The notes under the pieces were generated by a model. It was not told the origin of the DNA. It did no database searches and saw nothing but the letters and a program-made list of their open reading frames with translations. The translations under genes and the position numbers were made by a program. Shown here piece by piece: positions 11,422 through 56,829 of a stretch of 64,000 nucleotides of DNA (its first letter is position 1; the number at the start of each line of letters is the position of its first letter). Source of the stretch: Candidatus Limnocylindrales bacterium (GTDB lineage: Bacteria > Chloroflexota > Limnocylindria > Limnocylindrales > CSP1-4); NCBI GenBank assembly GCA_036278755.1, contig DASUKL010000066.1:625-64624 (forward strand). Reading direction: 5' to 3'.

Positions 11422-11451
11422 GTCGTCACGCTCCTTATCGCTCGCTCCGAT

Positions 11452-13775: not shown

Positions 13776-13821
13776 GGCGTGATCACCAGGTCCTCTCGGC
13801 GGCGGCCGGCGATGCGCCTGC

Positions 13822-16542: not shown

Positions 16543-16668
16543 GTCACTACCTCCTCTCAAGGTCGCCTGATCGCACCGAGATCGATGCGATCCCAGAACA
16601 TTGAAACCCTTTTCACCTCGCTGAGCCTCCTTCGACTTCCCGTACCGGATGGACTAGCTGGGTTCGGA

Positions 16669-19387: not shown

Positions 19388-19482
19388 TCTGCCACTCCTG
19401 AAAAGGTTTCCAGTCGTGCTAGGCTAGCCACTCGAGGCAGAGGCGTCAAGGGCCGAAGGAGCCTGGTCGAGCGGGAGCGCTG

Positions 19483-40342: not shown

Positions 40343-41449
40343 TCAGGCCTGGGCGGGGTGGTCGGCTTCGGCGCCCGGCGGCGGGCCGGCCGTCTCGGGT
40401 CCCGGGACGCGCTCGGTGCGGGCGGCGCGGAGGACGACGTCGGTGAAGGGGATGCGCAGATCGCGGAAGATCTCGATCGAGACGAGGAAGCCGGCGAAGA
40501 TGAAGACGGCCCCGATGAGCAGGCCCAGCGAGAAGAAGTCGATGACCCCGAACCGATTGAGGCTGTCGGTGAAGGTCGGCACGAAGCCGCCGATGGCGAT
40601 GAGGATGGTGGCCGGCACCCGGCTGTGGATGCGGCCGCTGAGGAGGGCCCGGATGGCGCCCGGCAGGGAGGCCAGGAAGTTGACCGTGATGGCTACCGGC
40701 GAGATGAGCAGGTTGAAGAGGAACTGCTCGCCCGGCTGGGTGGGGTCGAGGGAGTAGGCCAGGACCCGCCGCTTGGGCATGAAGACATAGGCCGAGAAGA
40801 GGGCGCCCAGGATGAGGGCGAAGCCGCCGGTCACGTTCATGAACGGCGTGAGCAGGCGCAGCACCGGCGGGAAGAGGTCGCTGACTGGGGCGCCGGTGGT
40901 GGGATCGACCTTCCAGCCTGGGGCCGGCAGGCTGGCCGTGACCATGAGGATGAAGCTGAGGATGGTGGCCCCCACCACGGCCACGCCGGCCAGTACCGGC
41001 CAGCGCTCGTTCTGAAAGTAGGTCTCCACGGCCACCGCGACGGCCAGCACGCCGGCCACGATGAAGTAGAGGATGGCCTGGCTGGCGACCTCGCCGTAGA
41101 TGGCCGGGAACTTGGCGAAGGTGGCGATGGTCAGCAGCCCGGCCAGGAAGAGGCACAGGGCGAAGGCGTAGCCGAAGCGGGTCCGACCCAGAAGGAAGGC
41201 ACTGCCCAGGCCCAGCCAGGCGGCCGTCCACATGGCCCCCGTCAGGTACCAGGTCCGGTACAGCGGATCGTTCCAGCCGGCCAGGGCGGCGAGCGCCTCG
41301 GCCCCCGCGCCGAGGGCGTAGAAGAGCATGCCCAGGGCCCAGATGGCCTGGAAGGCATGGCGGCGGCGCGACCACTGGTCGACGAGAGCCAGGAACATGA
41401 CCAGCGAGACGAGGGCCGTGATCGTGGAGACGACGAAGGTGAAGGTCAT
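40343..41449 (-). CDS. polytopic integral membrane protein (about 10 TM helices), function unknown
   Basis: Hydrophobic periodicity; ATG overlaps the upstream MerR-like stop (ATGA). Confidence 0.6.
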   Translation of the reverse strand: MTFTFVVSTITALVSLVMFLALVDQWSRRRHAFQAIWALGMLFYALGAGAEALAALAGWNDPLYRTWYLTGAMWTAAWLGLGSAFLLGRTRFGYAFALCLFLAGLLTIATFAKFPAIYGEVASQAILYFIVAGVLAVAVAVETYFQNERWPVLAGVAVVGATILSFILMVTASLPAPGWKVDPTTGAPVSDLFPPVLRLLTPFMNVTGGFALILGALFSAYVFMPKRRVLAYSLDPTQPGEQFLFNLLISPVAITVNFLASLPGAIRALLSGRIHSRVPATILIAIGGFVPTFTDSLNRFGVIDFFSLGLLIGAVFIFAGFLVSIEIFRDLRIPFTDVVLRAARTERVPGPETAGPPPGAEADHPAQA

Positions 41450-42201
41450 GGCTGTGGTTCCTCGTGCTCCTCCTGCTGGTAGCCGTCGAGGAAGGCCAGC
41501 AGGAGGCCGTCCAGGAGGGCCGACGCTTCGTCGTAGAGATGGCTCAGCTGGCTGGGATCGAGGTGGCGGCGCCGGCCGATGGCCCCGATCTCGGCCAGGA
41601 AGGGGCGGCGGGCGGCCACGAAGAGGGCCACGGCCCCGCGCAGGCTGGCGCCCGTGGCGCGCATCCGGCGGCCCATCTCGGTGGCTAATCCGGCCGACAC
41701 CAGGCGAGCCTCGGCCCGGGCCCTGGGGGCGGCCGGATCGAGCTGCCCGAGGAGGGCCTCGACGAGGCGGCGGCCCTCGTCCCGGAAGGCCGCCTCGTCG
41801 CCGGGCCCGATGGCCGGCGCCGTAGCCGTCGCGGTGGTCAAGGCCCCCGCGGCCACGGCGCCCGAGGCGGCCGGTCGGCGACGCTGCACGCTGTACCCCC
41901 GCCGGTAGGCCGCGGCGAACCGTTCGGTCGTGCCGCCCAGGCGAGACAGGGAGAGCGGATCGCGGCGCTGCACGGCGATGAGTTGCTCGAGCGAGCGACG
42001 GTTGAAGCGCCGGTGCCCGCCGGGCGTGGCGAAGGCCTCGACCTGCCCCGCATCGGCCCAGCGGCGGAGGGTGTCCGGGTCCACCCCCAGGAGCCGGCTG
42101 GCCGGACCCAGGGACAGCCACTCGTCCACGCCGCTGCTCGACACGGCCACCGGCGTCACGTCAGGCATGGACGGCCCACTCCTTGTCACGATCCTGGGCA
42201 A
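41446..42201 (-). CDS. MerR/excisionase-family HTH protein with a C-terminal extension
   Basis: WLSLGPASRLLGVDPDTLRRWADAGQVEAFATPGGHRRF HTH; precise start uncertain. Confidence 0.55.
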   Translation of the reverse strand: MPRIVTRSGPSMPDVTPVAVSSSGVDEWLSLGPASRLLGVDPDTLRRWADAGQVEAFATPGGHRRFNRRSLEQLIAVQRRDPLSLSRLGGTTERFAAAYRRGYSVQRRRPAASGAVAAGALTTATATAPAIGPGDEAAFRDEGRRLVEALLGQLDPAAPRARAEARLVSAGLATEMGRRMRATGASLRGAVALFVAARRPFLAEIGAIGRRRHLDPSQLSHLYDEASALLDGLLLAFLDGYQQEEHEEPQP

Positions 42202-42299
42202 ATCTACGTAAAGGGAGAGGTTACCGCCCGATGCTACGGCCCGGCCTCCGCGCCGTCAAGCCCGAGCCCGGCCTCCGCGCCGCCAAGGCCTCCGGGTGA

Positions 42300-42709: not shown

Positions 42710-43702
42710 TCAACCGCCGCTGGCCGTGGCCAGGGCGGCCTGCAGCTCGTCCGACCCGAAGGCGCCCTCGAACTTGGCCGCCAGCGTGCCGTCCTTGCCC
42801 ACGACGAAGACCCACGGCTCGCTGGGCAGGTGGAGGGGGGCCAGGGCCGGCTGGAGCTGGAAGTTACCGGTCGCGTCGAGGACCGGCTGGAGCCCGTTGC
42901 CGTCCCACTTCAGGACGTAGGGCTCGACGTGGATGAAGTCGACCGTGGCCTCGTACGGCGGGGCGACCTCCTTGACGTGGTCGAGGGTGGGGCCGCAGAC
43001 CTGGCTCTGGCAGAACTGGGGCGTGGCGATGACCAGGACGAAGGGGGTGTGGGAGGCCAGGGCCTGAGCCTCGGAGACCTTGTAGAAGTCGGGGTCGGGG
43101 TCGGGGTCCGTCGAGATCCGCTTGATCGCCTCGGCGCCCGTGGCGGTGGGCGTGTCGATGGAGGGGAAGGCCTCTCCCACGGCCGTTGTGGAGCTGTGGG
43201 CCGACACCTGGAACTGGAGCCGCACGCTCTTGCCTGTCCCGGCCTTGCCGCCCGACAGGTCGAACTGGACGCCCCAGTCGCCGGTGGCCGTGAAGTCGAC
43301 CGTGGCATGGTAGAGGCCCACCTTGTCAGGGATGGCCCAGACGAACGTTCCGCTGGCCGTGGCCAGGGACGTGGCCGGATCCTTGGCCAGGTCGTAGAAA
43401 GACAGTTGGGCGGCGATCGAGGGGTCGGCCACGGGCGCGCCGCTGGACGGGTCGAGGAGGGAGAAGAGGAAGCGGCTGGGCCCTACCGCCAGCTCGCCCG
43501 GCCCGTTGACGATGGTCGGCTCGTAGACCAGCCCCTCGACCGGCCCGATGGGCCATCCGGGGTACCGCCCCGAGGCCGCGTCGGCGCTGGACGTGGGGCT
43601 GCCGGCGGACCCGCTGCCACAGCTGGCCACCAGAAAGCACGCGGCCAGGACGGCCAGCAGTGACCGGCGGCCTGGCGCGCGGGAGGGTCGAAGGCGGGAC
43701 AT
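42710..43702 (-). CDS. lipoprotein with a Cys-pair (FCQSQVC) thioredoxin/SCO-like C-terminal region; possible cytochrome oxidase copper/redox accessory
   Basis: Lipobox LAACFLVASC; sits at the start of the cytochrome oxidase cluster. Confidence 0.45.
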   Translation of the reverse strand: MSRLRPSRAPGRRSLLAVLAACFLVASCGSGSAGSPTSSADAASGRYPGWPIGPVEGLVYEPTIVNGPGELAVGPSRFLFSLLDPSSGAPVADPSIAAQLSFYDLAKDPATSLATASGTFVWAIPDKVGLYHATVDFTATGDWGVQFDLSGGKAGTGKSVRLQFQVSAHSSTTAVGEAFPSIDTPTATGAEAIKRISTDPDPDPDFYKVSEAQALASHTPFVLVIATPQFCQSQVCGPTLDHVKEVAPPYEATVDFIHVEPYVLKWDGNGLQPVLDATGNFQLQPALAPLHLPSEPWVFVVGKDGTLAAKFEGAFGSDELQAALATASGG

Positions 43703-43818
43703 GGTCCCACCATAGCCCGTCCCTCCGGCGACCGCCGCTGGCGGGTCCGGGCCGCCCAGTCCGGCCATCGCCCGCGGCGCTGACGGGTCCGGGCCGATGC
43801 TACGATGGCCGGGCCCCG

Positions 43819-44817
43819 ATGACTCGCTTCCAGAAGCTCACGCTTGCCACGGCCCTGGTGACCTACCTCGTCGTGGTCATGGGGGCCATCACCCGCAGCA
43901 CCGGCTCCGGCATGGGTTGCGGCTATGAGTGGCCCCTCTGCCACGGCGTCCTGCCACCGATCGACGACGGGCAGGCCTGGATCGAGTGGTTCCACCGCCT
44001 CCTGGCGCTCATCATCGGCTTCCTCATCACCGCCGTCCTCGTCGTGGCCGTCCTCCGCCACCGCGATCGGCCGGTCGTCGTGGGCTCGGCCGTGATCGGC
44101 TTCCTGCTCGTCCTCATCCAGGCCCAGCTGGGCCAGATCACCGTCGTCACCGGCAACGCCAGCCAATGGGTGGTGGCCCACCTGGCCACGGCCATGCTGG
44201 TCCTGGCCGTCCTGACCTTCATCGCCATCCGGGTCCAGCACCCCGGCCGCTTCAGCGCGTCCGGCGTGAGCCAGCGCTTCACCCTACTCGCGGCCTTCGG
44301 CGCGCTGGCCGTCTACGTCCTCCTCCTGGTGGGCTCGCAGGTCACGGCCAGCGGCGCGGCCCTCGTCTATCCCGACTGGCCGCTCTTCGGTGGAGCGATC
44401 CTGCCCTCCTTGTCGCCCGACGCCTCGATCGCGGCGCTCCAGGCCACGCAGTTCATCCATCGGCTGCTGGCGGCCCTGGTCGGGCTGGTCGTGCTGGCCG
44501 TGGCCTGGGTGGCCTGGCGGCCCTACGCCGATGGGACCTGGGGAGCACCCGGCGCCCAGCCGGCCCTGGTCCGGCTGACGGGCCTGGCGGTCCTTCTCTA
44601 CGCCGTCCAGATCGTCGTCGGGGCGCTCCAGATCTGGACGCTCCTCAGCTCCTGGGCGGTGGCCCTCCACGTGGCCCTCGGGGCGGCCATCTGGGCCCTC
44701 CTCGTGGCGGCCGCGGCCCACGCTTACTGCGAGGCGCGCTCGGCCCAGGCGGTCGTCGCGCCGGGTTCGGCCGGGCCGGCGCCGGTCGGCGCATCGAAGG
44801 AGCTCGGCGAGATCTAG
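43819..44817 (+). CDS. ctaA: heme A synthase (COX15/CtaA)
   Basis: N-terminus MTRFQKLTLATALVTYLVVVMGAITRSTGSGMGCGYEWPLCHG with a conserved Cys pair and His-containing TM helices. Confidence 0.8.
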   Translation: MTRFQKLTLATALVTYLVVVMGAITRSTGSGMGCGYEWPLCHGVLPPIDDGQAWIEWFHRLLALIIGFLITAVLVVAVLRHRDRPVVVGSAVIGFLLVLIQAQLGQITVVTGNASQWVVAHLATAMLVLAVLTFIAIRVQHPGRFSASGVSQRFTLLAAFGALAVYVLLLVGSQVTASGAALVYPDWPLFGGAILPSLSPDASIAALQATQFIHRLLAALVGLVVLAVAWVAWRPYADGTWGAPGAQPALVRLTGLAVLLYAVQIVVGALQIWTLLSSWAVALHVALGAAIWALLVAAAAHAYCEARSAQAVVAPGSAGPAPVGASKELGEI

Positions 44818-44827
44818 GCCCCGCGGG

Positions 44828-45847
44828 TCAGGGCGTCCGGTCGGACCGCGCCCGCTCACGCTCGAGGATGGCATCGATGCGCAGCCCTTCGCGCTCCTCA
44901 TGGGCGATCCAAGCCGCCGCCACGGCCAGGATCACGACGAGGAAGAAGAGGTCCCCGCCCATCATCATGATCCCGCCGGCCAGGTGCTGATCGTCGATGG
45001 GCTGCAGCCAGCCCGGCACCTGGACCGCCGCGTAGTGAGGGTAGAGCACGTCCTGGGCCTGCCAGATGGCCAGGCTAAGGAACGAGCCCTGGGCCATCTG
45101 GAGGAAGAGGTAGCCGATCCGCACCGGGAACGAGAGGCGATGGTGGATCGGGTCGGCGGCCACGACCGGCAGCCAGAAGAGGTAGCCGCTGACGATATAG
45201 AGCAGGTGCTCGAGGATGTGGACGGCAGGGTCCTCGAGAGACAGCTCGTAGAGCGGGCTGAAGTGGCTGACCCAGAGGGCCGCCGTGAAGAGGCCCCAGG
45301 TCACCAGCGGGTGGGTCAGCAGACGGACCACGCGCGAATCGAGCAGGGGCAGGATCCGGCGCCGCCGGCGGGCGGCCGAGCTGACCCGCAGGAGCAGCGT
45401 GCCCGGCGCCCCGAGGGCCAGAAGGGGCGCCCCGACGAGCATCAGCAGCAGGTGCTGGACCATGTGGATGCTGAACAGCTCGGTGGCGTAGACATCCACG
45501 AACGAGGCCAGGGCGACGAAGGTGACCAGCACCCCAGCCACCCACGAGACGACACGCCACATCGGCACGGGCGTGGCCGGGTGGGCCTCATCGACCTTGA
45601 TCACGGCCGCCAGGTAGAGCGTCAGGCTGAGGACCGTGCCGCCCACGACGAAGGGCTGGAAGGTCCAGGTGCCCAAGGCGCTGGCCAGGTCGAGGCGGCC
45701 CACGCTGCTGGCGACCGCGGCCGCGACGACGGGCCGGACGGCGACCAGGCCGAGGATCAGGCCCCCGATCAGACCGACGATCCGGGCACCCAGACCCGGT
45801 CGGCGGACGGGGAGGCGAGGACGGATGGTCGGCGCGAGGTGGTGCAC
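44828..45847 (-). CDS. ctaG: cytochrome c oxidase assembly factor CtaG (Caa3_CtaG family)
   Basis: Polytopic membrane protein with HxxEH-like motifs; start uncertain (GTG 45847 or ATG 45943). Confidence 0.65.
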   Translation of the reverse strand: MHHLAPTIRPRLPVRRPGLGARIVGLIGGLILGLVAVRPVVAAAVASSVGRLDLASALGTWTFQPFVVGGTVLSLTLYLAAVIKVDEAHPATPVPMWRVVSWVAGVLVTFVALASFVDVYATELFSIHMVQHLLLMLVGAPLLALGAPGTLLLRVSSAARRRRRILPLLDSRVVRLLTHPLVTWGLFTAALWVSHFSPLYELSLEDPAVHILEHLLYIVSGYLFWLPVVAADPIHHRLSFPVRIGYLFLQMAQGSFLSLAIWQAQDVLYPHYAAVQVPGWLQPIDDQHLAGGIMMMGGDLFFLVVILAVAAAWIAHEEREGLRIDAILERERARSDRTP

Positions 45848-45996
45848 GGAGGCCTTGAAAATGTACGACGAGTGTCGTATAAAGGGGTCCAGACGGCCCG
45901 GCGGGACGGCGTTACGTCCCGCGGCTCGAACGTACGGGCGCATCGGGCCGTATGATAGGCGCCCCTGGTCCCACCGCTGGTAAGGAGCCTTTGCGC

Positions 45997-47088
45997 GTGT
46001 TCCGCGCCCTTCGATCCTTCGCCCGGTCGCCCCGGATCCGACTCGCCGCCCTCATCGGCTTCAGCCTGCTCGTGATCGCCGGTTGCGCTCAGGCCACCAA
46101 CGACAACCCCATCCCCGGGTTCTTCCCGCCCCCTGCGGCCACCGTGCAGGGTGAGGACACGAGCGGCCTGTACGACCTCGTCTTCTGGATCGTGGCCGTC
46201 ATCTTCGTCCTCGTCGAGGGCCTGATCATCTACTCCGTCTTCCGCTACCGCCGGAAGAAGGGGGACCAGGAGCTGCCCAAGCAGACCCACGGCTACTTCC
46301 CCCTCGAGGTCGCCTGGACGGTCATCCCCATCGTCCTCGTCCTCTTCGTCTGGGTCGTCGCCCTGCAGGTCCAGGACAAGGTCCTGGCTGAGTCCCCCGA
46401 CCCCGCCGTCACCGTGGACGTCACCGGCTTCCAATGGCAGTGGACCTTCGACTACAAGTCCCTTGGCCTGTCCTACACCGGGGCCGGCGCGGACGGACCC
46501 ACGATGGTCGTCCCGGTCGGCGAGCCGGTCCACATCAACGAGCACTCGAATGACGTCATCCACTCCTTCTACATCCGGGACTTCCTCTTCAAGCGGGACG
46601 TCGTCCCGGGTCGCGTGAACTCGTTCGAGTTCACGGTCAAGGAGCCGGGCACGTACAGCGGCCAGTGCGCCGAGTTCTGCGGCCTGGGCCACCACCAGAT
46701 GTTCTTCACCATCAAGGCCGTCTCACCGACCGACTACCAGGCCTGGGTGAAGTCGGAGCAGGCCAAGGCCCAGGCCACCCAGGCGCCGCCGCCCAGCGGG
46801 GCCACGGTGATCCAGCTCAGCGCCTCGAACACCACGGCCTTCGACGAGTCGACCCTCACCGCTCCGGCGAACAAGCCGTTCGTCATCGCCTTCACCAACA
46901 AGGAGGCCACGGGCGGCCCGCCCCACGACGTGGTGATCGTCGGCCCCGACAACAAGAGCATCACCGGGATGCCCCTGGCCCAGCCCGGCCAGACCGTCAA
47001 CTACTCGGAGCCGGCTCTGCCGGCCGGCACCTACAAGTTCTTCTGCATCGTCCATCCCAATATGACTGGCACGCTCACGGTCAAGTAG
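45997..47088 (+). CDS. ctaC: cytochrome c oxidase subunit II with an extra C-terminal cupredoxin (type-1 copper) domain
   Basis: CuA site HSFYIRDF...CAEFCGLGHHQM, followed by a second cupredoxin-like domain (HDVVIVGPD...YKFFCIVHPNMTGTL). GTG start 9 nt after AAGGAG. Confidence 0.8.
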   Translation: MFRALRSFARSPRIRLAALIGFSLLVIAGCAQATNDNPIPGFFPPPAATVQGEDTSGLYDLVFWIVAVIFVLVEGLIIYSVFRYRRKKGDQELPKQTHGYFPLEVAWTVIPIVLVLFVWVVALQVQDKVLAESPDPAVTVDVTGFQWQWTFDYKSLGLSYTGAGADGPTMVVPVGEPVHINEHSNDVIHSFYIRDFLFKRDVVPGRVNSFEFTVKEPGTYSGQCAEFCGLGHHQMFFTIKAVSPTDYQAWVKSEQAKAQATQAPPPSGATVIQLSASNTTAFDESTLTAPANKPFVIAFTNKEATGGPPHDVVIVGPDNKSITGMPLAQPGQTVNYSEPALPAGTYKFFCIVHPNMTGTLTVK

Positions 47089-47097
47089 GAGGTCCCG

Positions 47098-48756
47098 ATG
47101 GCGACGACCGCGCTTCCGCAGACCGGGACCTATTCACGGGCCTGGCTGTATGACTGGCTGACGACGACCGATCACAAGAAGATCGGCATCATGTACATCA
47201 CCAGCAGCTTCATCTTCTTCCTCGTGGGAGGCGTGCTGGCCCTCGGCATCCGGACCCAGTTGTGGGTGCCCCACAACACGTTCCTCGATCCGACCCTCTA
47301 CAACCAGGTCTTCACGATGCACGGCACGACGATGATCTTCTTCTTCGTCATGCCCATGCTGGCCGGCTTCGGCAACTACGCCATGCCGCTGATGATCGGC
47401 GCGGCCGACATGGCCTTCCCGCGCATCAACGCCCTGGCCTTCTGGATCATCCCCTTCAGCGGCATCCTGCTCTTCAGCGGCTTCCTGCTGGGTGGGGCGG
47501 CCAACGCCGGTTGGACCTCCTACGCGCCGCTCTCGGAGGCCAAATACTCCGGCGTGGGCCAGGACCTGTGGATCATGTCGATCCTGCTCAACGGGGTCAG
47601 CTCGATCCTGGGGGCCATCAACTTCCTGGTCACGATCTTCAAGCTCCGCGCGCCGGGCATGACCCTGCTGCGGATGCCGATCTTCGTGTGGACCGTCCTG
47701 GTCACGGCCGTGCTGCTGCTCTTCGCCGTGCCGGTCCTGGCCAGCGCCCTGGTCATGCTCTTCATCGACCGTAACTACGGCGGCTCGTTCTTCGACCCAG
47801 CCTCCGGCGGTGACGCCATCCTGTGGCAGAACGTGTTCTGGTTCTTCGGCCACCCCGAGGTCTACATCATGATCCTGCCCGCCTTCGGGATCATCTCCGA
47901 GACCACACCGGTGTTCAGCCACAAGCCGATCTTCGGCTACAAGGCCTTCGTCCTGGCCACCATCGCCATCGGCGTCATGAGCTTCGGCGTGTGGGCTCAC
48001 CACATGTTCGCCACCGGCGCGGTCTACCTGCCCTTCTTCTCCCTGACGACCTTCCTCATCGGCGTCCCGACCGGCGTGAAGATGTTCAACTGGACCTTCA
48101 CCATGGTCCGCGGCAAGATCCAGTTCACGACCGCGATGCTGTTCACCGTCGCCTTCCTGATGTCGTTCCTCATCGGCGGTCTCGACGGCGTCTTCGCCGC
48201 GGCCACGCCGGTCGACTTCGCCATCACCGATACCTACTTCATCGTCTCTCACATCCACTACGTGCTCTTCGGCGGATCGGCCACGGCCATCATGGCCGGC
48301 ATCTACTACTGGTTCCCCAAGATGTTCGGCCGCAAGCTCGACGAGCGGATCGGCAAGGTCCACTTCGTCCTGTGGTTCGTGGGCACCCAGATGACCTTCT
48401 TCTCGATGCACCTCCTGGGCCTGGCCGGCATGCCCCGCCGGATCGAGGACTACGCCCCCACGGCCTGGGAGCCGCTCAACCAGCTCGAGACCATCGGCGC
48501 CTTCGTCATCGCCCTCTCGATGGCCGTCTTCCTGTGGAACGTCTTCGTCTCGGCCCGCTCGGGTGAGATCGCCGAGGACGACCCCTGGGATGCCAACACC
48601 CTGGAGTGGGCCACGACCAGCCCACCCCCGCCGCACAACTTCGACTCGCTGCCGGAGATCCACTCCGAGCGCCCGCTGTTCGACCTCAAGCATGGCGGCG
48701 CCCACGGTGGGCCGCCGCTGCCGGCCCTGGCCGGTGATGGTGGAGGGGCCGCCTGA
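47098..48756 (+). CDS. ctaD: cytochrome c oxidase subunit I
   Basis: 552 aa with canonical heme-copper oxidase helices and His ligands. Confidence 0.9.
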   Translation: MATTALPQTGTYSRAWLYDWLTTTDHKKIGIMYITSSFIFFLVGGVLALGIRTQLWVPHNTFLDPTLYNQVFTMHGTTMIFFFVMPMLAGFGNYAMPLMIGAADMAFPRINALAFWIIPFSGILLFSGFLLGGAANAGWTSYAPLSEAKYSGVGQDLWIMSILLNGVSSILGAINFLVTIFKLRAPGMTLLRMPIFVWTVLVTAVLLLFAVPVLASALVMLFIDRNYGGSFFDPASGGDAILWQNVFWFFGHPEVYIMILPAFGIISETTPVFSHKPIFGYKAFVLATIAIGVMSFGVWAHHMFATGAVYLPFFSLTTFLIGVPTGVKMFNWTFTMVRGKIQFTTAMLFTVAFLMSFLIGGLDGVFAAATPVDFAITDTYFIVSHIHYVLFGGSATAIMAGIYYWFPKMFGRKLDERIGKVHFVLWFVGTQMTFFSMHLLGLAGMPRRIEDYAPTAWEPLNQLETIGAFVIALSMAVFLWNVFVSARSGEIAEDDPWDANTLEWATTSPPPPHNFDSLPEIHSERPLFDLKHGGAHGGPPLPALAGDGGGAA

Positions 48757-49388
48757 TGACCGCGCAGACCGAACATCTCGCCGCCGGCGGCCACGGCGCC
48801 CCGGCCCACGGCCCGCAGATCCACGGCCATGCGCAGGAGGGCACGAACACCGCCCTCATGGGCATGCTCCTGTTCATCGGCAGCGAGGTGATGTTCTTCT
48901 CGGGCCTCTTCGCCGCCTACTTCACCGTCAAGGGCATGAACGACGTCTGGCCCCCCCAGGGCTTCGCCGAGCACATCGAGCCGTTCCCTCTGCCGGCCAT
49001 CCTGACGGCGGTCCTGATCATCAGCTCCTTCACCATGCAGTGGGCCGTCTCGGCCATCCGCCGTGGCGACCGCCAGGGCATGGTCCGCGGCTTGTCCGTG
49101 ACGATGGTCCTCGGCATCCTCTTCCTGATCGGCCAGCTGTACGACTACTCGACCCTGGGCTTCGGCATCAACAGCGGCATCTACGGTTCGCTGTTCTTCA
49201 CCATGACCGGTTTTCACGGGGCCCACGTCTTCGGCGGGGTCCTGGGCATCTTCGTCGTCACCTCACGCGGCGCCAGCGGCCAGTTCTCGGCCAAGCACCA
49301 CGTCGCGGTCGAGGCGGTGAGCGCATACTGGCACTTCGTCGACATCGTTTGGATCGTGCTCTTCACGACCCTGTACTTCCTCCGCTAG
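48756..49388 (+). CDS. ctaE: cytochrome c oxidase subunit III
   Basis: 210 aa, COX3 family. Confidence 0.85.
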   Translation: MTAQTEHLAAGGHGAPAHGPQIHGHAQEGTNTALMGMLLFIGSEVMFFSGLFAAYFTVKGMNDVWPPQGFAEHIEPFPLPAILTAVLIISSFTMQWAVSAIRRGDRQGMVRGLSVTMVLGILFLIGQLYDYSTLGFGINSGIYGSLFFTMTGFHGAHVFGGVLGIFVVTSRGASGQFSAKHHVAVEAVSAYWHFVDIVWIVLFTTLYFLR

Positions 49389-49398
49389 GAGGCCGTCC

Positions 49399-49584
49399 AT
49401 GCAGAGCGGTCGCGCCGCCATCGTCATCTTCCTCGGCTTCGTCCTGACCGGGATCGTCTACTACCTGCTCAACAGCACGGTCAAGGCAGAGATCGACCCA
49501 GGCGGCGCCACGATGCTCATCTTCGCCGGGGTGGCCATGGGCTTCGGGTTCTTCGTGATGCTGCGCGGGTCGCGCGAGCTCTAG
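49399..49584 (+). CDS. small two-helix membrane protein resembling the N-terminal half of actinobacterial oxidase subunit IV (CtaF)
   Basis: 61 aa; AGGAGG RBS 6 nt upstream. Confidence 0.55.
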   Translation: MQSGRAAIVIFLGFVLTGIVYYLLNSTVKAEIDPGGATMLIFAGVAMGFGFFVMLRGSREL

Positions 49585-49602
49585 CCCGGCCAGCTCAGCG
49601 AG

Positions 49603-50775
49603 ATGCCCTGGGACACCCTCTGGAACGACGTCCTGGCCTGGCTGGGCCAGGTCATCACACCTGACTGGAACGATGTCATCGGCTGGCTGCCCAGCCTGAC
49701 GTTCATCCTCCTCGTCCTCTTCTTCCTCGACCTGGCCCATCGCTGGCGGGCCGAGCGATCGCGCAACGCCTCTCGCCTGCCAGCGCCCCGCAAGCCGGCC
49801 CCACCGGCGGGCGTCCACATCCCCGGCGGCTCGCTGTGGCCGTTCCTGTTGCCCATCGGGGCGGCCGTCCTGCTCTTCGGGCTGGTCGACCATCCGGCCC
49901 GCATCGGTACGCCGACCCTCGACGCCTCCGGCATCCCCACCCCGGCGGCCGCGGTGGACCTGGCCCACGTCTTCAACCTGCCGATCATGGGCCTGGGCAT
50001 CCTCATCGGGCTCATCGGCATCGTGGGCTGGTATCGTGACGCCGGTCACGAGTGGCATCACACCGACCACCCCCAGCTGGCTGTCGCTCCCGCCCTGCCG
50101 GCCCCCAGCGCGTCCGGACCGCCGCCCGGCGTCCATCTGCCGGGCCCCAGCCCCTGGCCGTTCTTCGTGCCCATCGCCATGGCGGTCATCCTCTTCGGGC
50201 TCATCTTCAGCCCGGCCCTCGTCGTGGGCGGCCTGCTCATGGGCGCCATCGCCGCCAGCGGCTGGTATCGCGATGCCAACCATGAGCTGCGCCAGATCCA
50301 GGCGGGCCAGCCCGCGGCCGAGCCCCGCACCCGCGACCCGCACCGCGCCTTCCCCACCGCCCTGGTGGGCGTCTATGCCGCCATCGGGGTCGTGGCCGTG
50401 GCCCTGACCTTCGCCCCCCAGACGATCGACTTCGTCAACGCCACGCCGGCGCCCAGCACCGCAGCCCCAGAGGCTAGCGGCGGGGCGGCCACGAGCGCGG
50501 TCAAGATCAGCGCCAAGGACCTCAGGTTCAGCCTCTCCACGATTACCGTGGCGGCCGATAAGCCCTTCACCATCACCTTCGACAACGAGGATTCGGTGCC
50601 CCACAACGTGGCCATCTTCGAGGGCCGCGACGCGACCGGCAAGAACGTCTTCCGGGGCACGATCGACGCTGGGCCCAAGACCCTGACCTACGACGTGCCT
50701 GCCCTGCCGGCCGGCACCTACTACTTCCATTGCGACGTCCATCCCACGATGAACGGGACGCTCATCTCGAAGTGA
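49603..50775 (+). CDS. membrane protein with two tandem CtaF-C-terminal-like modules fused to a C-terminal cupredoxin domain
   Basis: Repeated PPAGVHIPGGSLWPF...GWYRDAGHE and PPPGVHLPGPSPWPF...GWYRDANHE modules; C-terminus HNVAIF...YYFHCDVHPTMNGTL (type-1 copper ligand pattern H...C..H..M). Confidence 0.6.
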   Translation: MPWDTLWNDVLAWLGQVITPDWNDVIGWLPSLTFILLVLFFLDLAHRWRAERSRNASRLPAPRKPAPPAGVHIPGGSLWPFLLPIGAAVLLFGLVDHPARIGTPTLDASGIPTPAAAVDLAHVFNLPIMGLGILIGLIGIVGWYRDAGHEWHHTDHPQLAVAPALPAPSASGPPPGVHLPGPSPWPFFVPIAMAVILFGLIFSPALVVGGLLMGAIAASGWYRDANHELRQIQAGQPAAEPRTRDPHRAFPTALVGVYAAIGVVAVALTFAPQTIDFVNATPAPSTAAPEASGGAATSAVKISAKDLRFSLSTITVAADKPFTITFDNEDSVPHNVAIFEGRDATGKNVFRGTIDAGPKTLTYDVPALPAGTYYFHCDVHPTMNGTLISK

Positions 50776-50824
50776 GGCGACGACGCCCACCGTCCTGAGA
50801 TCGCACCGGCTCCTGGGGGCCGGG

Positions 50825-51364
50825 GTGGGCCTGGTCGCGGTCGTGGCCATCGTGGCCGTGGCGTTCAACGTCGACCTCGGCCCGCCGACGAGCGGATCGG
50901 ACGACGCCAGCGGGACGTCCATCGTCATCGGTGGCTCGCCCCTCCTCGACAAGCCGGCGCCGGGCTTCACCCTGGCCACGGACAGCGGCCAGGAGGTCAG
51001 CCTGGCGGCGTATCGGGGGCGGCCGGTGATCGTCAACTTCTGGGCCTCCACCTGCGTGCCCTGCACGGTCGAGTTCCCTCTCTTCAAGGCCGCCCTGACG
51101 GCCCACGCTGATGATCAGCTGACCATCCTTGGCGTCGTCTACAAGGACACCGCCAGCGCCGCCCGAGCCTTCATGACCCAGGAAGACGCGACCTGGCCGA
51201 TGCTCCTCGACCCGGGCAGCAAGATCGCCGCGGCCTACAAGGTCGAGGCCATCCCCATGAGCTTCTACGTCGACCCCCAGGGGATCGTGCGCTACGTGAG
51301 CTTCGGGCCACCACCGGCAGGCACCATCGACGAGGAGCTGGCCCGGATGCTGGGCCGCTCGTGA
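50825..51364 (+). CDS. TlpA/ResA-like membrane-anchored thiol-disulfide oxidoreductase
   Basis: WASTCVPC thioredoxin motif and an N-terminal TM anchor; GTG start. Confidence 0.75.
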   Translation: MGLVAVVAIVAVAFNVDLGPPTSGSDDASGTSIVIGGSPLLDKPAPGFTLATDSGQEVSLAAYRGRPVIVNFWASTCVPCTVEFPLFKAALTAHADDQLTILGVVYKDTASAARAFMTQEDATWPMLLDPGSKIAAAYKVEAIPMSFYVDPQGIVRYVSFGPPPAGTIDEELARMLGRS

Positions 51365-51368
51365 GGGT

Positions 51369-52451
51369 GTGACCGCCGCCGGATCGTCAGCCGCTGGGTC
51401 CGCTGCCGCTGGCTCCGCTGCTCCCACTGGCCCGCCGGCCATCGAGCTGCTGGGGCTGACGAAGCGGTACGAGGGCCGTCCCGTCGTCGATGGGCTCGAC
51501 CTCAGCGTCCAACACGGCGAGGTGCTAGCCCTCCTGGGGCCCAACGGGGCCGGCAAGACGACGACCGTCGAGACCATCGAGGGCTACCGCCTGCCCGACG
51601 CGGGCACGGTCCGCGTCCTGGGCCTCGAGCCCCGCCGGGACCGGGCCGCGCTGCGCGGCCGGACCGCGGTCATGCTCCAGCGGGCGGACCTGTGGAACCA
51701 GTGCCGGGTCGGGGAGGCCGTCCGACTCTTCGCCGCCTTCTATCGCGACCCGCTGCCCGTGGACGAGGTGCTGGAACGGGTGGGCCTGGCCCGCCTGGCC
51801 GGCGCCCGCTATCGCACCCTCTCGGGCGGTGAGCGGCAGCGTCTGGCCCTCGCCCTGGCCCTCGTCGGTCGGCCCGAGCTGGCCATCCTCGACGAGCCCA
51901 CCGCGGCCATGGACGTCACCGCCCGGCGCCAGACCTGGGAGCTCCTGCGGGAGCTGCGCGCTGGCGGGGCGACGATCCTCCTGACCACCCACCTCCTCGA
52001 CGAGGCGGAGCAGCTAGCCGACCGGGTGGCCATCATCGACCATGGGCGCCTCCTGGCGGTGGGCGCGCCGGCCGACCTGCGGGCCGGCTTGGGCTCGGCT
52101 CCCGCTGGGCCTGCGGCGGAGGGCGGGGCTGGGGGCCTAGCGGCGGCTTCGGCTTCCGGTTCGGCTAGCGGTTCGGCTGTCGGACAGCGTCGCCTGCGGC
52201 TCGACCTGCGGACACCGCTGGACGATGGGCAGCGGGCCGCGCTGGCCGCCCTCGCGGGCGTGGCCGGGATCCACGACGAGGGCCCCGCCTCATTGCTGTT
52301 GGCGACGAGCGATCCGGGGGCCCTGCTGGTGAGCCTCGCTGGCTGGCTGCACGAACGCCGCATCGAGCCCCTGAGCATCAGCCTCGGCGAGGCCAGCCTC
52401 GAGGAGGTCTTCCTCCGCCTCACCGGCAGCGACCCGGAGGCAGAGGCATGA
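51369..52451 (+). CDS. ABC transporter ATP-binding protein (ABC-2/CcmA-like) with a C-terminal extension
   Basis: Walker A GPNGAGKTT, signature LSGGERQRL, Walker B ILDEPT. Confidence 0.8.
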   Translation: MTAAGSSAAGSAAAGSAAPTGPPAIELLGLTKRYEGRPVVDGLDLSVQHGEVLALLGPNGAGKTTTVETIEGYRLPDAGTVRVLGLEPRRDRAALRGRTAVMLQRADLWNQCRVGEAVRLFAAFYRDPLPVDEVLERVGLARLAGARYRTLSGGERQRLALALALVGRPELAILDEPTAAMDVTARRQTWELLRELRAGGATILLTTHLLDEAEQLADRVAIIDHGRLLAVGAPADLRAGLGSAPAGPAAEGGAGGLAAASASGSASGSAVGQRRLRLDLRTPLDDGQRAALAALAGVAGIHDEGPASLLLATSDPGALLVSLAGWLHERRIEPLSISLGEASLEEVFLRLTGSDPEAEA

Positions 52452-52467
52452 GCCTCGCGTCGGCAGC

Positions 52468-53232
52468 GTGAGCGCCCCCGCCTCGGCCATGGCCGCCTAT
52501 CGGGCCCAGGCGGCCATGGAGCTGCGTCTCACCGTGCGCCGCGGCGAGAACCTGCTCGTGACCCTGGGCATCCCCGTCGTGCTGCTCATCTTCCTCGTCG
52601 GCGTGCCGGTCGTCCCAGCCCCGGCCGGGGTGCGTCTGGTCGACGAGCTCGTGCCGGGCATCCTGGCCCTGGCCCTCCTCTCCACCGGGCTCGTCTCCCT
52701 GGCCATCGCCACGGCCTTCGAGCGCAGCCAGGGCGTGCTCAAGCGCCTCGCCGGCTCGCCCCTGCCGACGAGCGGCCTGCTGGCGGCTAAGACGACGGCC
52801 GTGGTGGCCACCGTGGTGGTCCAGGTCGCGATCATCACCGCGGTCGGCCTGGCCCTCGGCTGGCAGCCACGCGGCGGACTCGGGGGCGGGCTGGCCGCCG
52901 CCCTCCCCTGGCTCATCCTGGGCACGGTGGCCCACGCCGCGGTGGGCCTGCTGCTGGCCGGCACCCTGCGCGCGGAGGCGACGCTGGCCGTGGCCAACGC
53001 CCTCTACCTGCTCTGCCTCCTCGTGGGCGGCGTCGTCGTACCGCTGACCGACCTACCGTCGGTGGTGGCCGTGCCGGCCTCCGTCCTGCCGCCAGCCCTT
53101 ATGGCCGACCTGTTGCGGGGCGCCCTCGTCCCGGGCGGCACGATCGATCTCGGCCAGGGGCTGGCCTTGCTGGCCTGGACCGCGGTCCTGGCCATCGCGG
53201 CGGTGCGCGGTTTCCGGGTCGAGGAGGCCTGA
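52468..53232 (+). CDS. ABC-2 family transporter permease
   Basis: Six-TM ABC-2 pattern. Confidence 0.75.
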   Translation: MSAPASAMAAYRAQAAMELRLTVRRGENLLVTLGIPVVLLIFLVGVPVVPAPAGVRLVDELVPGILALALLSTGLVSLAIATAFERSQGVLKRLAGSPLPTSGLLAAKTTAVVATVVVQVAIITAVGLALGWQPRGGLGGGLAAALPWLILGTVAHAAVGLLLAGTLRAEATLAVANALYLLCLLVGGVVVPLTDLPSVVAVPASVLPPALMADLLRGALVPGGTIDLGQGLALLAWTAVLAIAAVRGFRVEEA

Positions 53233-54073: not shown

Positions 54074-54149
54074 TGGTTGCGGGGGACGGATTCGAACCGC
54101 CGACCTTCGGGTTATGAGCCCGACGAGCTGCCGCTGCTCCACCCCGCGA
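54074..54149 (-). tRNA. initiator tRNA-fMet (CAT)
   Basis: Cloverleaf with anticodon CAT, GGG:CCC anticodon stem, C1·A72 mismatch, and an encoded CCA. Confidence 0.85.
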
Positions 54150-56756: not shown

Positions 56757-56829
56757 TGAGCCGGCTGGGATTCGAACCCAGGACACGAGGATTAAAAGTC
56801 CCCTGCTCTGACCGCTGAGCTACCGGCCC
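56757..56829 (-). tRNA. tRNA-Lys (TTT)
   Basis: Cloverleaf with anticodon loop CTTTTAA; CCA is not encoded. Confidence 0.85.

What the first reader, a model, noticed from the sequence alone, without database searches (positions are those of the whole stretch)
42710..53232. aa3-type oxidase cluster with two extra cupredoxin domains and a split, duplicated subunit IV
CtaC carries its CuA domain plus a second C-terminal cupredoxin with a type-1 copper ligand pattern (H…C..H..M). After ctaD and ctaE, a 61-aa protein resembles the N-terminal helices of actinobacterial CtaF. The next gene encodes two tandem copies of the CtaF C-terminal module (…P.S.WPF…GWYRDA.HE) fused to another cupredoxin. No cytochrome c domain or gene is present. 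Blue-copper domains may therefore replace cytochrome c as electron entry, as sulfocyanin and halocyanin do in archaeal oxidases. A thioredoxin-like lipoprotein, ctaA, ctaG, TlpA and an ABC-2 exporter complete what looks like a copper-centre biogenesis set. This architecture is unusual for bacteria.
Basis: partly seen in the sequence, partly recalled or inferred. Interest (0 to 1): 0.65.

Follow-up and report, generated by a model that had tools for sequence, protein, structure and literature searches.

The report
Oxidase with two built-in blue-copper domains
This is the oxygen-respiring enzyme operon of an uncultured soil and freshwater bacterial class (Limnocylindria), in which two blue-copper electron-carrier domains are fused to the enzyme's own subunits, roughly where some bacteria fuse a cytochrome c; the design is conserved in dozens of species, and I found no description of it in the literature I could search.

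Summary
Window 42710-53232 is an A1-type aa3 haem-copper oxidase operon from a Candidatus Limnocylindrales MAG (Chloroflexota).

- **CtaC:** it has an intact CuA site plus a C-terminal cupredoxin with invariant type-1 ligands (H325, C365, H368, M371).
- **390-aa gene:** it encodes two tandem copies of a two-helix hairpin plus a second cupredoxin (H334, C377, H380, M383). The hairpin is best described as transmembrane helices 1-2 of canonical subunit III, which the short 5-helix CtaE lacks. This is the same element that CtaF supplies in mycobacteria.
- **61-aa gene:** it is conserved. Joined to hairpin 1, it aligns collinearly with the lineage's own CtaF-like subunit (hhalign 78%).
- **Conservation:** the operon recurs in about 80 species-level genomes. 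Both cupredoxins are present in 52 loci, neither in 10, CtaC only in 3. The two domains are old, separately conserved paralogues.

The window has no CxxCH motif at all. The lineage is not free of cytochrome c, however: a related MAG with this same operon also carries qcrCAB (dihaem cytochrome c) with a second oxidase.

Best reading: the copper domains are tethered electron-entry sites, a copper analogue of caa3. The upstream donor is unknown. I rate it a new variant of a known kind.

The parts
42710..43702 (-). Conserved lipoprotein. The N-terminal domain has no confirmed family (weak YtkA/CopC-like hints). The C-terminal domain is thioredoxin-fold, with an invariant F-C-x4-C-G-P motif.
   Evidence: Present in synteny in most loci. 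Alignment A8 gives invariant C231 and C236. The profile hits thiol-disulfide isomerase 3ia1 (E 6.4e-5) and CycY (E 0.05). YtkA scores only E 0.08.
43813..44817 (+). CtaA, haem A synthase. It is not fused to CtaB here, and CtaB is absent from the window.
   Evidence: PF02628, E 5.4e-42. Relatives carry CtaA-UbiA fusions. tblastn finds only the CtaA part in the window.
44828..45943 (-). CtaG, a Bacillus-type oxidase assembly factor, transcribed divergently from ctaC.
   Evidence: PF09678, E 8.6e-71. It holds the same position in about 70 loci.
45952..47088 (+). CtaC, subunit II: lipoprotein signal, 2 TM helices, CuA domain, a short helix and linker, then a C-terminal type-1 cupredoxin.
   Evidence: Pfam. 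Invariant in alignment A4: lipobox C45 and CuA ligands H204, C239, C243, H247, M250. AF2 pLDDT 87, pTM 0.69. Best structural match is Thermus caa3 subunit II, 2yev_B.
46798..47085 (+). Cupredoxin domain of CtaC (residues 283-378). Ligands H325, C365, H368, M371, with amicyanin-like C-x2-H-x2-M spacing.
   Evidence: Cupredoxin_1. Ligands invariant in 42 sequences. 42% identical to the other cupredoxin in the window.
47098..48756 (+). CtaD, subunit I, A1-type. GHPEVY, WAHHMF, PTGVKMF and SHIHYV motifs can be read directly.
   Evidence: PF00115, E 1.4e-160. TIGR02891 at 715.7 bits is above its cutoff. Sequence.
48756..49388 (+). CtaE, a short 5-helix subunit III that lacks TM1-2.
   Evidence: Matches COX3 profile positions 69-255 of 258. 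aa3_CtaE_Actin scores 158.6 bits, below its cutoff of 190.
49399..49584 (+). 61-aa protein with two TM helices. Probably corresponds to the N-terminal half of a CtaF-like subunit IV.
   Evidence: Found in synteny. 12 short representatives among 1.8 billion proteins. Against the lineage's CtaF-like subunit: E 4.9e-4 alone, and E 1.7e-5 at 78.5% probability when joined to hairpin 1. Not significant against mycobacterial CtaF.
49603..50775 (+). 390-aa subunit: TM0, hairpin 1, hairpin 2, TM5, a flexible linker, then a type-1 cupredoxin.
   Evidence: Alignment A1. AF2 helices at 22-50, 79-95, 126-155, 185-202, 204-233 and 252-280. The linker at 281-294 has pLDDT below 50, while the cupredoxin scores above 90.
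49798..50067 (+). Hairpin 1 (residues 66-155): a copy of subunit III TM1-2, with a variable insert in the periplasmic loop.
   Evidence: Invariant H72, P74, S77, W79, P80 ... G142, W143. Hits P. denitrificans COX3 residues 13-73, E 1.5e-3.
50116..50301 (+). Hairpin 2 (residues 172-233): a second copy of subunit III TM1-2.
   Evidence: Invariant H178, P180, P182, S183, W185, P186 ... G220, W221, E228. Hits COX3 residues 4-65: E 2e-6 for mammalian COX3 and E 5.5e-5 for R. sphaeroides. Repeat 1 against repeat 2: hhalign 99.9%.
50485..50772 (+). Cupredoxin domain of the 390-aa subunit (residues 295-390). Ligands H334, C377, H380, M383.
   Evidence: Cupredoxin_1 and Copper-bind. Ligands invariant in 41 sequences. 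Top Foldseek hits are auracyanins 6kol and 2aan and amicyanin 1id2, all at probability 1.00.
50825..51364 (+). TlpA/ResA-like periplasmic thiol-disulfide oxidoreductase (CVPC motif).
   Evidence: AhpC-TSA, E 7e-27; ResA, E 5e-22. It follows the 390-aa gene in nearly all loci.
51369..53232 (+). ABC ATPase (51369-52451) and ABC-2 permease (52468-53232). The link to the oxidase is loose and the role is unknown.
   Evidence: ABC_tran, E 9.5e-29; DrrB family, E 4e-24. Present after tlpA in roughly one third of loci.

Best explanation
The region encodes a proton-pumping A1-type aa3 haem-copper oxidase of Limnocylindria that has two tethered type-1 (blue) copper domains.

**Shown**
- The core is CtaC-CtaD-CtaE with intact CuA and subunit I motifs.
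- CtaE lacks subunit III helices 1-2. The next-but-one gene supplies that hairpin twice.
- A 61-aa two-helix protein lies between CtaE and that gene.
- One cupredoxin is fused to the C-terminus of subunit II by a short linker. This is the position the cytochrome c domain occupies in caa3 oxidases.
- The other cupredoxin hangs from the hairpin subunit on a low-confidence, Pro/Ala/Ser-rich linker of variable length.
- Both domains have complete His-Cys-His-Met sites and an auracyanin/amicyanin-like fold.
- The predicted topology places both domains in the periplasm.

**Inferred**
- Electrons enter through these copper centres and pass to CuA, then haem a, then haem a3-CuB.
- The long-tethered domain most likely collects electrons from a donor complex, and the CtaC-fused domain acts as a fixed relay next to CuA.
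- The donor is not encoded here. In some relatives an actinobacterial-type bcc complex with a dihaem cytochrome c is a candidate.
- One hairpin probably fills the canonical subunit III TM1-2 position. The second hairpin and the extra helices may form a docking surface.
- The Trx-like lipoprotein, TlpA, CtaG and CtaA serve copper-site and haem A assembly.
For: - **Architecture and ligands:**
- **Fold:** the cupredoxin has pLDDT above 90, and its top hits are auracyanin and amicyanin at probability 1.00. The CtaC model's best match is caa3 subunit II, 2yev_B.
- **Hairpin identity:** it matches subunit III TM1-2, which complements a CtaE truncated to COX3 profile positions 69-255. The literature states that CtaE and CtaF together equal subunit III in M. 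smegmatis (PMC8361435).
- **Conservation:** the gene order is the same in about 80 species-level genomes.
- **Co-occurrence:** both cupredoxins in 52 loci, neither in 10, CtaC only in 3, hairpin subunit only in 0.
- **Old, non-redundant paralogues:** each domain's nearest neighbour is of its own type in 47 of 47 genomes. Identity is 52% and 47% within types, and 37-39% between types.
- **Carrier interchangeability:** three loci that lack the hairpin-subunit cupredoxin carry a separate secreted tandem double-cupredoxin gene inside the operon.
- **No haem c motif:** no CxxCH occurs in the window. In 1562 coding-like ORFs from the loci, the only convincing c-type cytochromes are the adjacent QcrC in L021 and L070 and the caa3-type CtaC of the Actinomycetota outlier L082. 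None lies within a Chloroflexota copy of this operon.
- **Topology:** positive residues follow TM0. Both hairpins keep the canonical N-in orientation, and six helices place the C-terminal domain outside (read).
Against: - There are no functional data. Copper binding, redox potential and electron transfer are all inferred.
- The tools return no model coordinates or PAE, so Cu-Cu and Cu-CuA distances could not be measured.
- The order of the two copper centres in the relay is a guess based on linker length.
- Ten loci have neither cupredoxin, so the core enzyme can work with a separately encoded donor. The fused domains are therefore an option, not a necessity.
- The lineage has c-type cytochromes, so the 'replaces cytochrome c' reading may be wrong.
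- AF2 confidence for how the membrane part of the 390-aa protein packs is low (pTM 0.43).
Confidence: 0.65

Rival explanations
1. The cupredoxins do not replace cytochrome c. They are adaptors within a bcc-aa3-type supercomplex. The dihaem QcrC reduces the tethered copper domain or domains, which pass electrons to CuA. The duplicated hairpin subunit is mainly the III-IV docking interface, as CtaE and CtaF are in mycobacteria.
For: - qcrC-qcrA-qcrB lies directly beside ctaG, divergent from the cupredoxin operon, in L070 and L021.
- One MAG has both systems.
- In M. smegmatis the main III-IV contacts run through CtaE and CtaF (PMC8361435).
Against: - In every case seen, qcrCAB is co-operonic with a different oxidase (COX2 without a cupredoxin, COX1, and a CtaF-like subunit).
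- This QcrC type has only 79 clusters in the database, about 45 of them at 45% identity or more. The 390-aa protein has over 300, which suggests QcrC is present in a minority of carriers. The two counts are not strictly comparable.
- qcr is adjacent in only 2 of about 70 loci.
Confidence: 0.2
2. The two copper domains are parallel, independent entry ports for different periplasmic donors, such as different dehydrogenases or quinol-oxidising complexes, rather than a two-step relay.
For: - The two domains are old paralogues kept separately.
- Three loci retain only the CtaC domain.
- Amicyanin-type carriers are donor-specific in methylotrophs (my own knowledge).
Against: - The hairpin-subunit domain never occurs without the CtaC domain (0 of 65 loci). 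This fits a dependency better than independence.
- No dehydrogenase is linked to the operon.
Confidence: 0.1
3. The cupredoxin domains are not electron carriers. They would be copper-handling or structural modules, for example storing or delivering Cu for CuA/CuB assembly. Alternatively, the fusions are assembly or annotation artefacts.
For: - The operon is rich in copper-site assembly genes.
- Some Cupredoxin_1 proteins have unknown roles (4hcf/4hcg).
Against: - A full His-Cys-His-Met type-1 site with amicyanin spacing is conserved in at least 93 of 94 domains. Known CuA chaperones (PCuAC, Sco) use different ligand sets (my own knowledge).
- The fusions recur in 52 independent assemblies and hundreds of metagenome clusters. 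That excludes an artefact.
Confidence: 0.05

Closest known systems
caa3-type cytochrome c oxidase (Thermus thermophilus 2yev; Bacillus caa3)
   Same: - A-family oxidase with its electron-donor domain fused to the C-terminus of subunit II.
- Subunit II of 2yev is the best structural match to this CtaC (34% identity).
- Subunit III helices 1-2 are supplied by a separate small polypeptide (Thermus subunit IV; from my memory of the 2yev paper, not checked here).
- A Bacillus-type CtaG assembly factor is present.
   Different: - The fused domain is a type-1 cupredoxin, not a haem c domain, and there is no CxxCH anywhere.
- There is a second donor domain on another subunit.
- The hairpin is duplicated.
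Actinobacterial bcc-aa3 supercomplex oxidase (M. smegmatis/M. tuberculosis CtaC-D-E-F; 6adq, 8hcr)
   Same: - Lipoprotein CtaC and a 5-helix CtaE.
- Subunit III TM1-2 is supplied by a separate subunit (CtaF) (PMC8361435).
- NCBIfam actinobacterial CtaC, CtaD and CtaE models are the best or near-best hits, though all score below their cutoffs.
- Relatives possess qcrCAB with a dihaem cytochrome c.
   Different: - The CtaF equivalent is split into a 61-aa protein plus a larger protein. In the larger protein the hairpin is duplicated and joined to two extra helices and a cupredoxin.
- CtaC carries a cupredoxin.
- No qcr genes are in the operon.
- The Pfam Cyt_c_ox_IV gathering score is not reached (20.9 against 26.9 bits).
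Auracyanin-dependent electron transfer in Chloroflexus/Roseiflexus (ACIII - auracyanin - oxidase or reaction centre)
   Same: - Same phylum.
- A membrane-tethered type-1 copper protein acts as the periplasmic carrier (PMC10873879 abstract).
- Auracyanins are the top structural matches for the hairpin-subunit cupredoxin.
   Different: - Auracyanin is a separate protein with about 17-23% identity over the structural alignment. Here the carriers are fused to oxidase subunits.
- The ligand loop is amicyanin-length.
- No ACIII genes were seen.
Archaeal oxidases with blue-copper partners (SoxM complex with sulfocyanin SoxE; haloarchaeal ba3 with halocyanin)
   Same: A type-1 copper protein serves as the integral or dedicated donor to a haem-copper oxidase in place of cytochrome c (my own knowledge). 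2 of 41 family members give a weak SoxE Pfam match.
   Different: - The host is bacterial and the oxidase is A1-type.
- The domains are fused rather than separate subunits.
- They are not orthologous to SoxE or halocyanin.
Quinol oxidases bo3 / aa3-600 (subunit I with C-terminal extra helices)
   Same: They show the same mobile hairpin. The repeat profile also hits B. subtilis QoxB residues 579-617 (E 0.011). This illustrates that subunit III TM1-2 moves between polypeptides.
   Different: These enzymes lack CuA and oxidise quinol. In this enzyme the CuA ligands are intact.

Membership tests
A1-type aa3 haem-copper oxidase (CtaC/D/E) | Subunit I with the haem a and haem a3-CuB histidines, and the D-channel glutamate in the GHPEVY motif | tested here: met
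   TIGR02891 scores 715.7 bits, above its cutoff of 670.75. GHPEVY, WAHHMF, PTGVKMF and SHIHYV are readable in the translation.
A1-type aa3 haem-copper oxidase (CtaC/D/E) | Subunit II with a binuclear CuA site (H, C, C, H, M) | tested here: met
   H204, C239, C243, H247 and M250 are invariant in 42 homologues. The FQWQW entry tryptophan is conserved.
A1-type aa3 haem-copper oxidase (CtaC/D/E) | Haem A as cofactor | tested here: inconclusive
   CtaA is adjacent. CtaB is not in the window, though it is fused to CtaA in relatives. The haem type itself cannot be tested with these tools.
caa3-type oxidase | C-terminal cytochrome c domain (CxxCH) on subunit II | tested here: not met
   No CxxCH in CtaC or anywhere in the window. 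The C-terminal domain is a Cupredoxin_1.
Type-1 (blue) copper cupredoxins (amicyanin/auracyanin/plastocyanin class) | His, Cys, His, Met ligand set, with Cys-His-Met on the C-terminal loop | tested here: met
   Invariant in alignments A1 and A4. Across 94 domains: H 94, C 94, H 93, M 93.
Type-1 (blue) copper cupredoxins (amicyanin/auracyanin/plastocyanin class) | Greek-key beta-sandwich cupredoxin fold | tested here: met
   AF2 pLDDT above 90 for residues about 300-390. Foldseek probability 1.00 to auracyanin, amicyanin and plastocyanin.
Type-1 (blue) copper cupredoxins (amicyanin/auracyanin/plastocyanin class) | Copper bound, ~600 nm absorption, narrow-hyperfine EPR, reversible one-electron redox | not testable with these tools
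   This needs purified protein.
Actinobacterial CtaF (Pfam PF12270 Cyt_c_ox_IV) | A single ~140-aa, 4-helix polypeptide that matches PF12270 above its gathering score | tested here: not met
   - The 390-aa protein scores 20.9 bits against a cutoff of 26.9, over profile positions 83-122 only.
- 23 of 41 family members match at E<0.01.
- The 61-aa family matches in 1 of 15 members.
- hhalign against mycobacterial CtaF: probability 16% for the hairpin and 7% for the 61-aa protein.
Actinobacterial CtaF (Pfam PF12270 Cyt_c_ox_IV) | Collinear equivalence: N-terminal two helices, then the subunit III-like hairpin | tested here: inconclusive
   The 61-aa protein joined to hairpin 1 aligns over 104 columns with the lineage's own 160-178-aa CtaF-like subunit (probability 78.5%, E 1.7e-5). 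That subunit matches mycobacterial CtaF only weakly (E 1.2e-3, C-terminal half only). The concatenate against mycobacterial CtaF gives E 0.018.
Subunit III (COX3) N-terminal TM1-2 hairpin | The H-x-x-x-PS-x-WP ... W-(W/Y)-R-D motif pair flanking two helices, matching COX3 N-termini | tested here: met
   Repeat 2 profile: COX3 residues 4-65, E 2e-6 (mammalian) and E 5.5e-5 (R. sphaeroides). Repeat 1 profile: P. denitrificans residues 13-73, E 1.5e-3. PF00510 matches 7 of 41 members.
TlpA/ResA thiol-disulfide oxidoreductases | Membrane-anchored or periplasmic thioredoxin fold with a CxxC motif | tested here: met
   AhpC-TSA, E 7e-27; ResA subfamily, E 5e-22; CVPC motif present. Its substrate (CuA/T1Cu cysteines or apocytochrome c) was not tested.

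The most novel reading that the evidence does not exclude
This oxidase has an all-copper electron input chain: a tethered T1Cu on the hairpin subunit, then a fixed T1Cu on subunit II, then CuA. This would make it independent of c-type cytochromes. The duplicated subunit III hairpin subunit would dock an as yet unidentified quinol-oxidising partner. If so, it would be the first bacterial 'cupredoxin-aa3' supercomplex, and it would be the main aerobic respiratory route of an abundant uncultured class.
Probability: 0.25. Interest if true: 0.75.

Novelty: new variant of a known kind. Interest (0 to 1): 0.55.

Why it matters
- **Abundant, uncultured hosts.** Limnocylindria (formerly Ellin6529/CSP1-4/SL56) are abundant, uncultured soil, sediment and freshwater bacteria. 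The papers I could search do not describe their terminal oxidase.
- **A copper counterpart of caa3.** If the fused copper domains are the electron entry, this enzyme is the copper counterpart of caa3. It would give a defined, sequence-tractable case of a tethered blue-copper domain feeding CuA in a bacterial A-type oxidase.
- **A natural experiment.** The clade contains operons with two, one or zero cupredoxins. These can be compared to find out what the domains contribute.
- **A mobile structural module.** The subunit III TM1-2 hairpin is already known at the subunit III N-terminus, at the subunit I C-terminus, and in CtaF. This case adds a form that is duplicated and fused to a redox domain.

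Tried and rejected
**Tests of the 61-aa protein against known CtaF**
- Against mycobacterial CtaF: hhalign probability 0.8-7%.
- No PDB hit.
- Pfam Cyt_c_ox_IV matches only 1 of 15 members.
- The concatenate of the 61-aa protein and hairpin 1 does no better against mycobacterial CtaF or Pfam.
- I therefore do not file it as CtaF. Only the comparison with the lineage's own CtaF-like subunit gave a usable signal.

**Searches that found nothing useful**
- Looking up the window's own protein to annotate the contig returned only a 2.2-kb copy.
- Literature searches for the fusion or for Limnocylindria respiration found nothing relevant.
- A tblastn search of plasmids for a cultured carrier gave only an unrelated Streptomyces cupredoxin.
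- A naive C-terminal regex count of T1 sites was misled by frameshifts and C-terminal tails. I replaced it with a frame-independent tally.

**Readings considered and rejected**
- Quinol oxidase: the CuA ligands are intact.
- Assembly artefact: the fusions recur in 52 loci.
- Recent duplication or gene conversion of the cupredoxins: the two types are cleanly orthologous across 47 genomes.
- A cytochrome c-free lineage: qcrC occurs in relatives.

Full report
**What is in the sequence**

The window is about 70% G+C. The genes at 42710-53232 stand out by GC3 above 0.9. Domain searches give this map:

| Coordinates | Strand | Gene product |
|---|---|---|
| 42710-43702 | - | lipoprotein |
| 43813-44817 | + | CtaA |
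| 44828-45943 | - | Bacillus-type CtaG |
| 45952-47088 | + | CtaC (COX2_TM + COX2 + Cupredoxin_1) |
| 47098-48756 | + | CtaD |
| 48756-49388 | + | CtaE |
| 49399-49584 | + | 61-aa two-helix protein |
| 49603-50775 | + | 390-aa protein ending in a cupredoxin |
| 50825-51364 | + | TlpA/ResA-like redoxin |
| 51369-53232 | + | ABC ATPase and ABC-2 permease |

The 390-aa protein is 100% identical to an NCBI entry from a 'Candidatus Limnocylindrales bacterium' MAG, on a 65.7-kb contig.

**The oxidase core is an ordinary A1-type aa3 enzyme**

- CtaD passes the TIGR02891 cutoff (715.7 against 670.75 bits). It shows GHPEVY, WAHHMF, PTGVKMF and SHIHYV.
- In 42 CtaC homologues the lipobox cysteine and the CuA ligands (H204, C239, C243, H247, M250) are invariant. 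The FQWQW tryptophan motif is conserved.
- Electrons therefore enter through CuA, and this is not a quinol oxidase.
- CtaE is the short form. It matches only positions 69-255 of the 258-position COX3 profile, so it lacks helices 1-2 of canonical subunit III.

**Two type-1 copper domains**

- CtaC continues past the CuA domain with a helix, a linker of about nine residues, and a cupredoxin (residues 283-378). Its ligands H325, C365, H368 and M371 are invariant.
- The 390-aa protein ends in a second cupredoxin (residues 295-390). Its ligands H334, C377, H380 and M383 are invariant in 41 homologues.
- Both have the short amicyanin-type C-x2-H-x2-M loop.
- The AF2 model of the second domain has pLDDT above 90. 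Its best PDB matches are auracyanins (6kol, 2aan, 1qhq) and amicyanin (1id2), all at probability 1.00.
- The CtaC model (pLDDT 87, pTM 0.69) is closest to subunit II of the Thermus caa3 oxidase (2yev_B, 34% identity). In that enzyme the C-terminal appendage is a cytochrome c domain.
- The two cupredoxins of the window are 42% identical.

**The repeated membrane module is subunit III helices 1-2**

- The 390-aa protein contains two copies of H-x-P-G-P-S-x-W-P-F ... G-W-Y-R-D-A-x-x-E flanking two helices. The copies align at 99.9% hhalign probability (E 1e-33).
- A profile of copy 2 finds the N-terminal residues 4-65 of canonical 7-helix COX3 in the PDB (E 2e-6 mammalian; E 5.5e-5 R. sphaeroides). 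It also finds the C-terminal extra helices of B. subtilis QoxB (E 0.011).
- Copy 1 finds P. denitrificans COX3 residues 13-73 (E 1.5e-3).
- Pfam on 41 members gives Cyt_c_ox_IV in 23 and COX3 in 7.
- Against mycobacterial CtaF (8hcr_H and 6adq_H, sequences confirmed) the hairpin aligns to CtaF residues 88-128, but weakly (E 1.5e-3).
- A Chem Rev review (PMC8361435) states that in M. smegmatis CtaE plus CtaF make up subunit III, with CtaF providing helices 1-2.
The accurate description is a split subunit III whose missing hairpin is supplied, twice, by the next-but-one gene.
- The predicted helices (22-50, 79-95, 126-155, 185-202, 204-233, 252-280) and the positive residues after the first helix give six transmembrane segments. 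Both hairpins sit in the canonical N-in orientation, and the cupredoxin is outside.
- The tether (residues 281-294) has pLDDT below 50 and varies in length.

**The 61-aa protein**

- It is real. It sits in the same position in distant relatives, and it has 12 short representatives among 1.8 billion proteins.
- Its likeness to the N-terminal half of CtaF is not significant against mycobacterial CtaF (hhalign E 0.07 to 0.005, probability 7% or less, although in the same register). It is also not significant against Pfam (1 of 15 members) or the PDB.
- A better comparator turned up in related MAGs. This is the 160-178-aa subunit that follows COX1 in a qcr-linked second oxidase operon, and it has a weak precomputed Cyt_c_ox_IV hit.
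- Against that subunit, the 61-aa family alone gives E 4.9e-4.
- The 61-aa protein joined to hairpin 1 aligns collinearly over 104 columns (probability 78.5%, E 1.7e-5).
- I regard 'split CtaF-like subunit' as moderately supported, but I do not file it as a member of PF12270.

**Distribution and evolution**

- A scan of one genome per GTDB species found 93 relatives, and 80 loci were kept. Of these, 76 are labelled Chloroflexota of some kind, including CSP1-4 and two complete chromosomes.
- The gene order is near constant: lipoprotein(-), ctaA..., ctaG(-) | ctaC, ctaD, ctaE, 61-aa gene, hairpin gene, tlpA. The ABC pair follows in roughly a third of loci.
- A frame-independent tally of loci with both core genes gives the following:

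| Cupredoxins present | Loci |
|---|---|
| Both | 52 |
| Neither | 10 (one is an Actinomycetota outlier with a true caa3-type CtaC) |
| CtaC only | 3 |
| Hairpin subunit only | 0 |

- In the clade without cupredoxins, the hairpin protein is 263-265 aa and stops after helix 6.
- The three CtaC-only loci carry an extra secreted tandem double-cupredoxin gene between ctaC and ctaD.
- Across 47 genomes each cupredoxin's nearest neighbour is always of its own type. Identity is 52% (C-C) and 47% (H-H), against 37-39% for C-H.
- The duplication is therefore old, and both copies have been kept separately.

**Is cytochrome c absent?**

- In the window, yes. No ORF of 80 aa or more in any frame has CxxCH, and the flanking genes are housekeeping.
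- In the lineage, no. Among 1562 coding-like ORFs in the fetched loci, L021 and L070 have a dihaem cytochrome c next to ctaG. It is followed by QcrA (QcrA_N + Rieske), QcrB and a second, cupredoxin-less COX2.
- Homologues of this QcrC sit in qcrC-qcrA-qcrB-COX2-COX1-CtaF-like operons (L085, L086).
- L086 (CAYRMQ010000010.1) and L031 (CAYRMQ010000128.1, carrying the cupredoxin operon) belong to the same assembly, GCA_964425305.1.
- At least some carriers therefore make c-type cytochromes and have two oxidases.
- This QcrC type has only 79 database clusters, against more than 300 for the hairpin protein. It may be a minority trait, but the two counts are not strictly comparable.
- Whether the window's own genome has qcr or a cytochrome c maturation system could not be tested.

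**Most likely mechanism**

- Shown: an intact A1 oxidase; two periplasmic, ligand-complete, auracyanin/amicyanin-like domains fused to its subunits; strong co-occurrence; and separate conservation of the two domains.
- Inferred: the copper centres are tethered electron-entry sites feeding CuA, as the haem c domain does in caa3.
- Inferred from linker lengths: the CtaC domain is a fixed relay and the hairpin-subunit domain a mobile collector.
- Inferred: one hairpin probably completes subunit III. The second hairpin, with the extra helices, could form a docking surface. In mycobacteria the III-IV contact runs through CtaE and CtaF (PMC8361435).
- Inferred: TlpA, the Trx-fold lipoprotein (F-C-x4-C-G-P), CtaG and CtaA are plausibly assembly factors.
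- The donor remains unknown. Candidates are the bcc dihaem cytochrome c, where present, or an unidentified complex.

**Comparison and novelty**

The enzyme works like a caa3 oxidase with copper in place of haem c. It resembles the actinobacterial enzyme in splitting subunit III, and it echoes auracyanin, sulfocyanin and halocyanin systems in using blue copper. It fails the defining test for caa3 (no haem c domain) and for PF12270 CtaF (below threshold, different architecture). I found no paper describing the fusion or the hairpin-cupredoxin subunit. Public annotations call them only 'cytochrome c oxidase subunit II' and 'cupredoxin domain-containing protein/plastocyanin'. I rate it a new variant of a known kind, with moderate to good interest.

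**Limits**

- There are no model coordinates or PAE, so no metal-metal distances could be measured.
- No whole-genome access was available for the source MAG.
- Two structure libraries were unavailable.
- All functional statements are inferences from sequence, predicted fold, synteny and co-occurrence.

Noticed in passing
L070 1108-4860 (-); L021 1-1295 (-); L085 10001-16036; L086 10001-16114: Related Limnocylindria MAGs encode an actinobacterial-style qcrC (dihaem c)-qcrA-qcrB operon. It is followed by a second oxidase: COX2 without a cupredoxin, COX1, and a 160-178-aa CtaF-like subunit, with no COX3. In L070 and L021 this operon abuts the cupredoxin operon.
   Followed up: partly
L073 6308-7174 (-); L066 6291-7154 (-); L069 about 6233-7099 (-): A secreted 287-288-aa protein made of two tandem cupredoxin-like domains (PHE...C-x11-H-x4-M) lies between ctaC and ctaD. 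It occurs only in the three loci whose hairpin subunit lacks its cupredoxin.
   Followed up: partly
window 52414-52495 (-) and 5478-5567 (+): ARAGORN calls a tRNA-Gly that overlaps the junction of the two ABC genes, and a 90-nt tRNA-Glu. Rfam at gathering threshold confirms only tRNA-Met (54077-54148) and tRNA-Lys (56757-56829). The other two are probably false positives.
   Followed up: yes
window 1-20000: G+C is lower here (0.64-0.70) than in the rest of the window (0.71-0.76), and fewer ORFs pass the GC3 filter. This could be a compositionally distinct segment.
   Followed up: no
window 43813-44817: CtaA stands alone here and no CtaB is found in the 64 kb. In L001-L003 CtaA is fused to a UbiA-family haem O synthase (531-634 aa).
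   Followed up: partly
window 48756-48850 (CtaE N-terminus): CtaE has a His-rich N-terminal tail (HLAAGGHGAPAHGPQIHGH). tblastn matches in many relatives start only at about residue 24, so the tail seems poorly conserved.
   Followed up: no
window 41446-42255 (-): A MerR-family regulator lies immediately beside the lipoprotein gene. Whether it is a copper-responsive (CueR-like) regulator of the cluster was not examined.
   Followed up: no
P0241 (3675 aa) and P0249 (3177 aa): Two giant proteins match the second helix of the 61-aa protein many times (28 and 8 stretches). These are most likely hydrophobic repeats of biased composition rather than homology.
   Followed up: no
L077, L078, L006: Contigs labelled Gaiellaceae, Rubrivivax and Sulfotelmatobacter carry the Limnocylindria-type operon, with CtaD about 66-79% identical to the window's CtaD. 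They are probably mis-binned or mislabelled contigs rather than cases of horizontal transfer.
   Followed up: no
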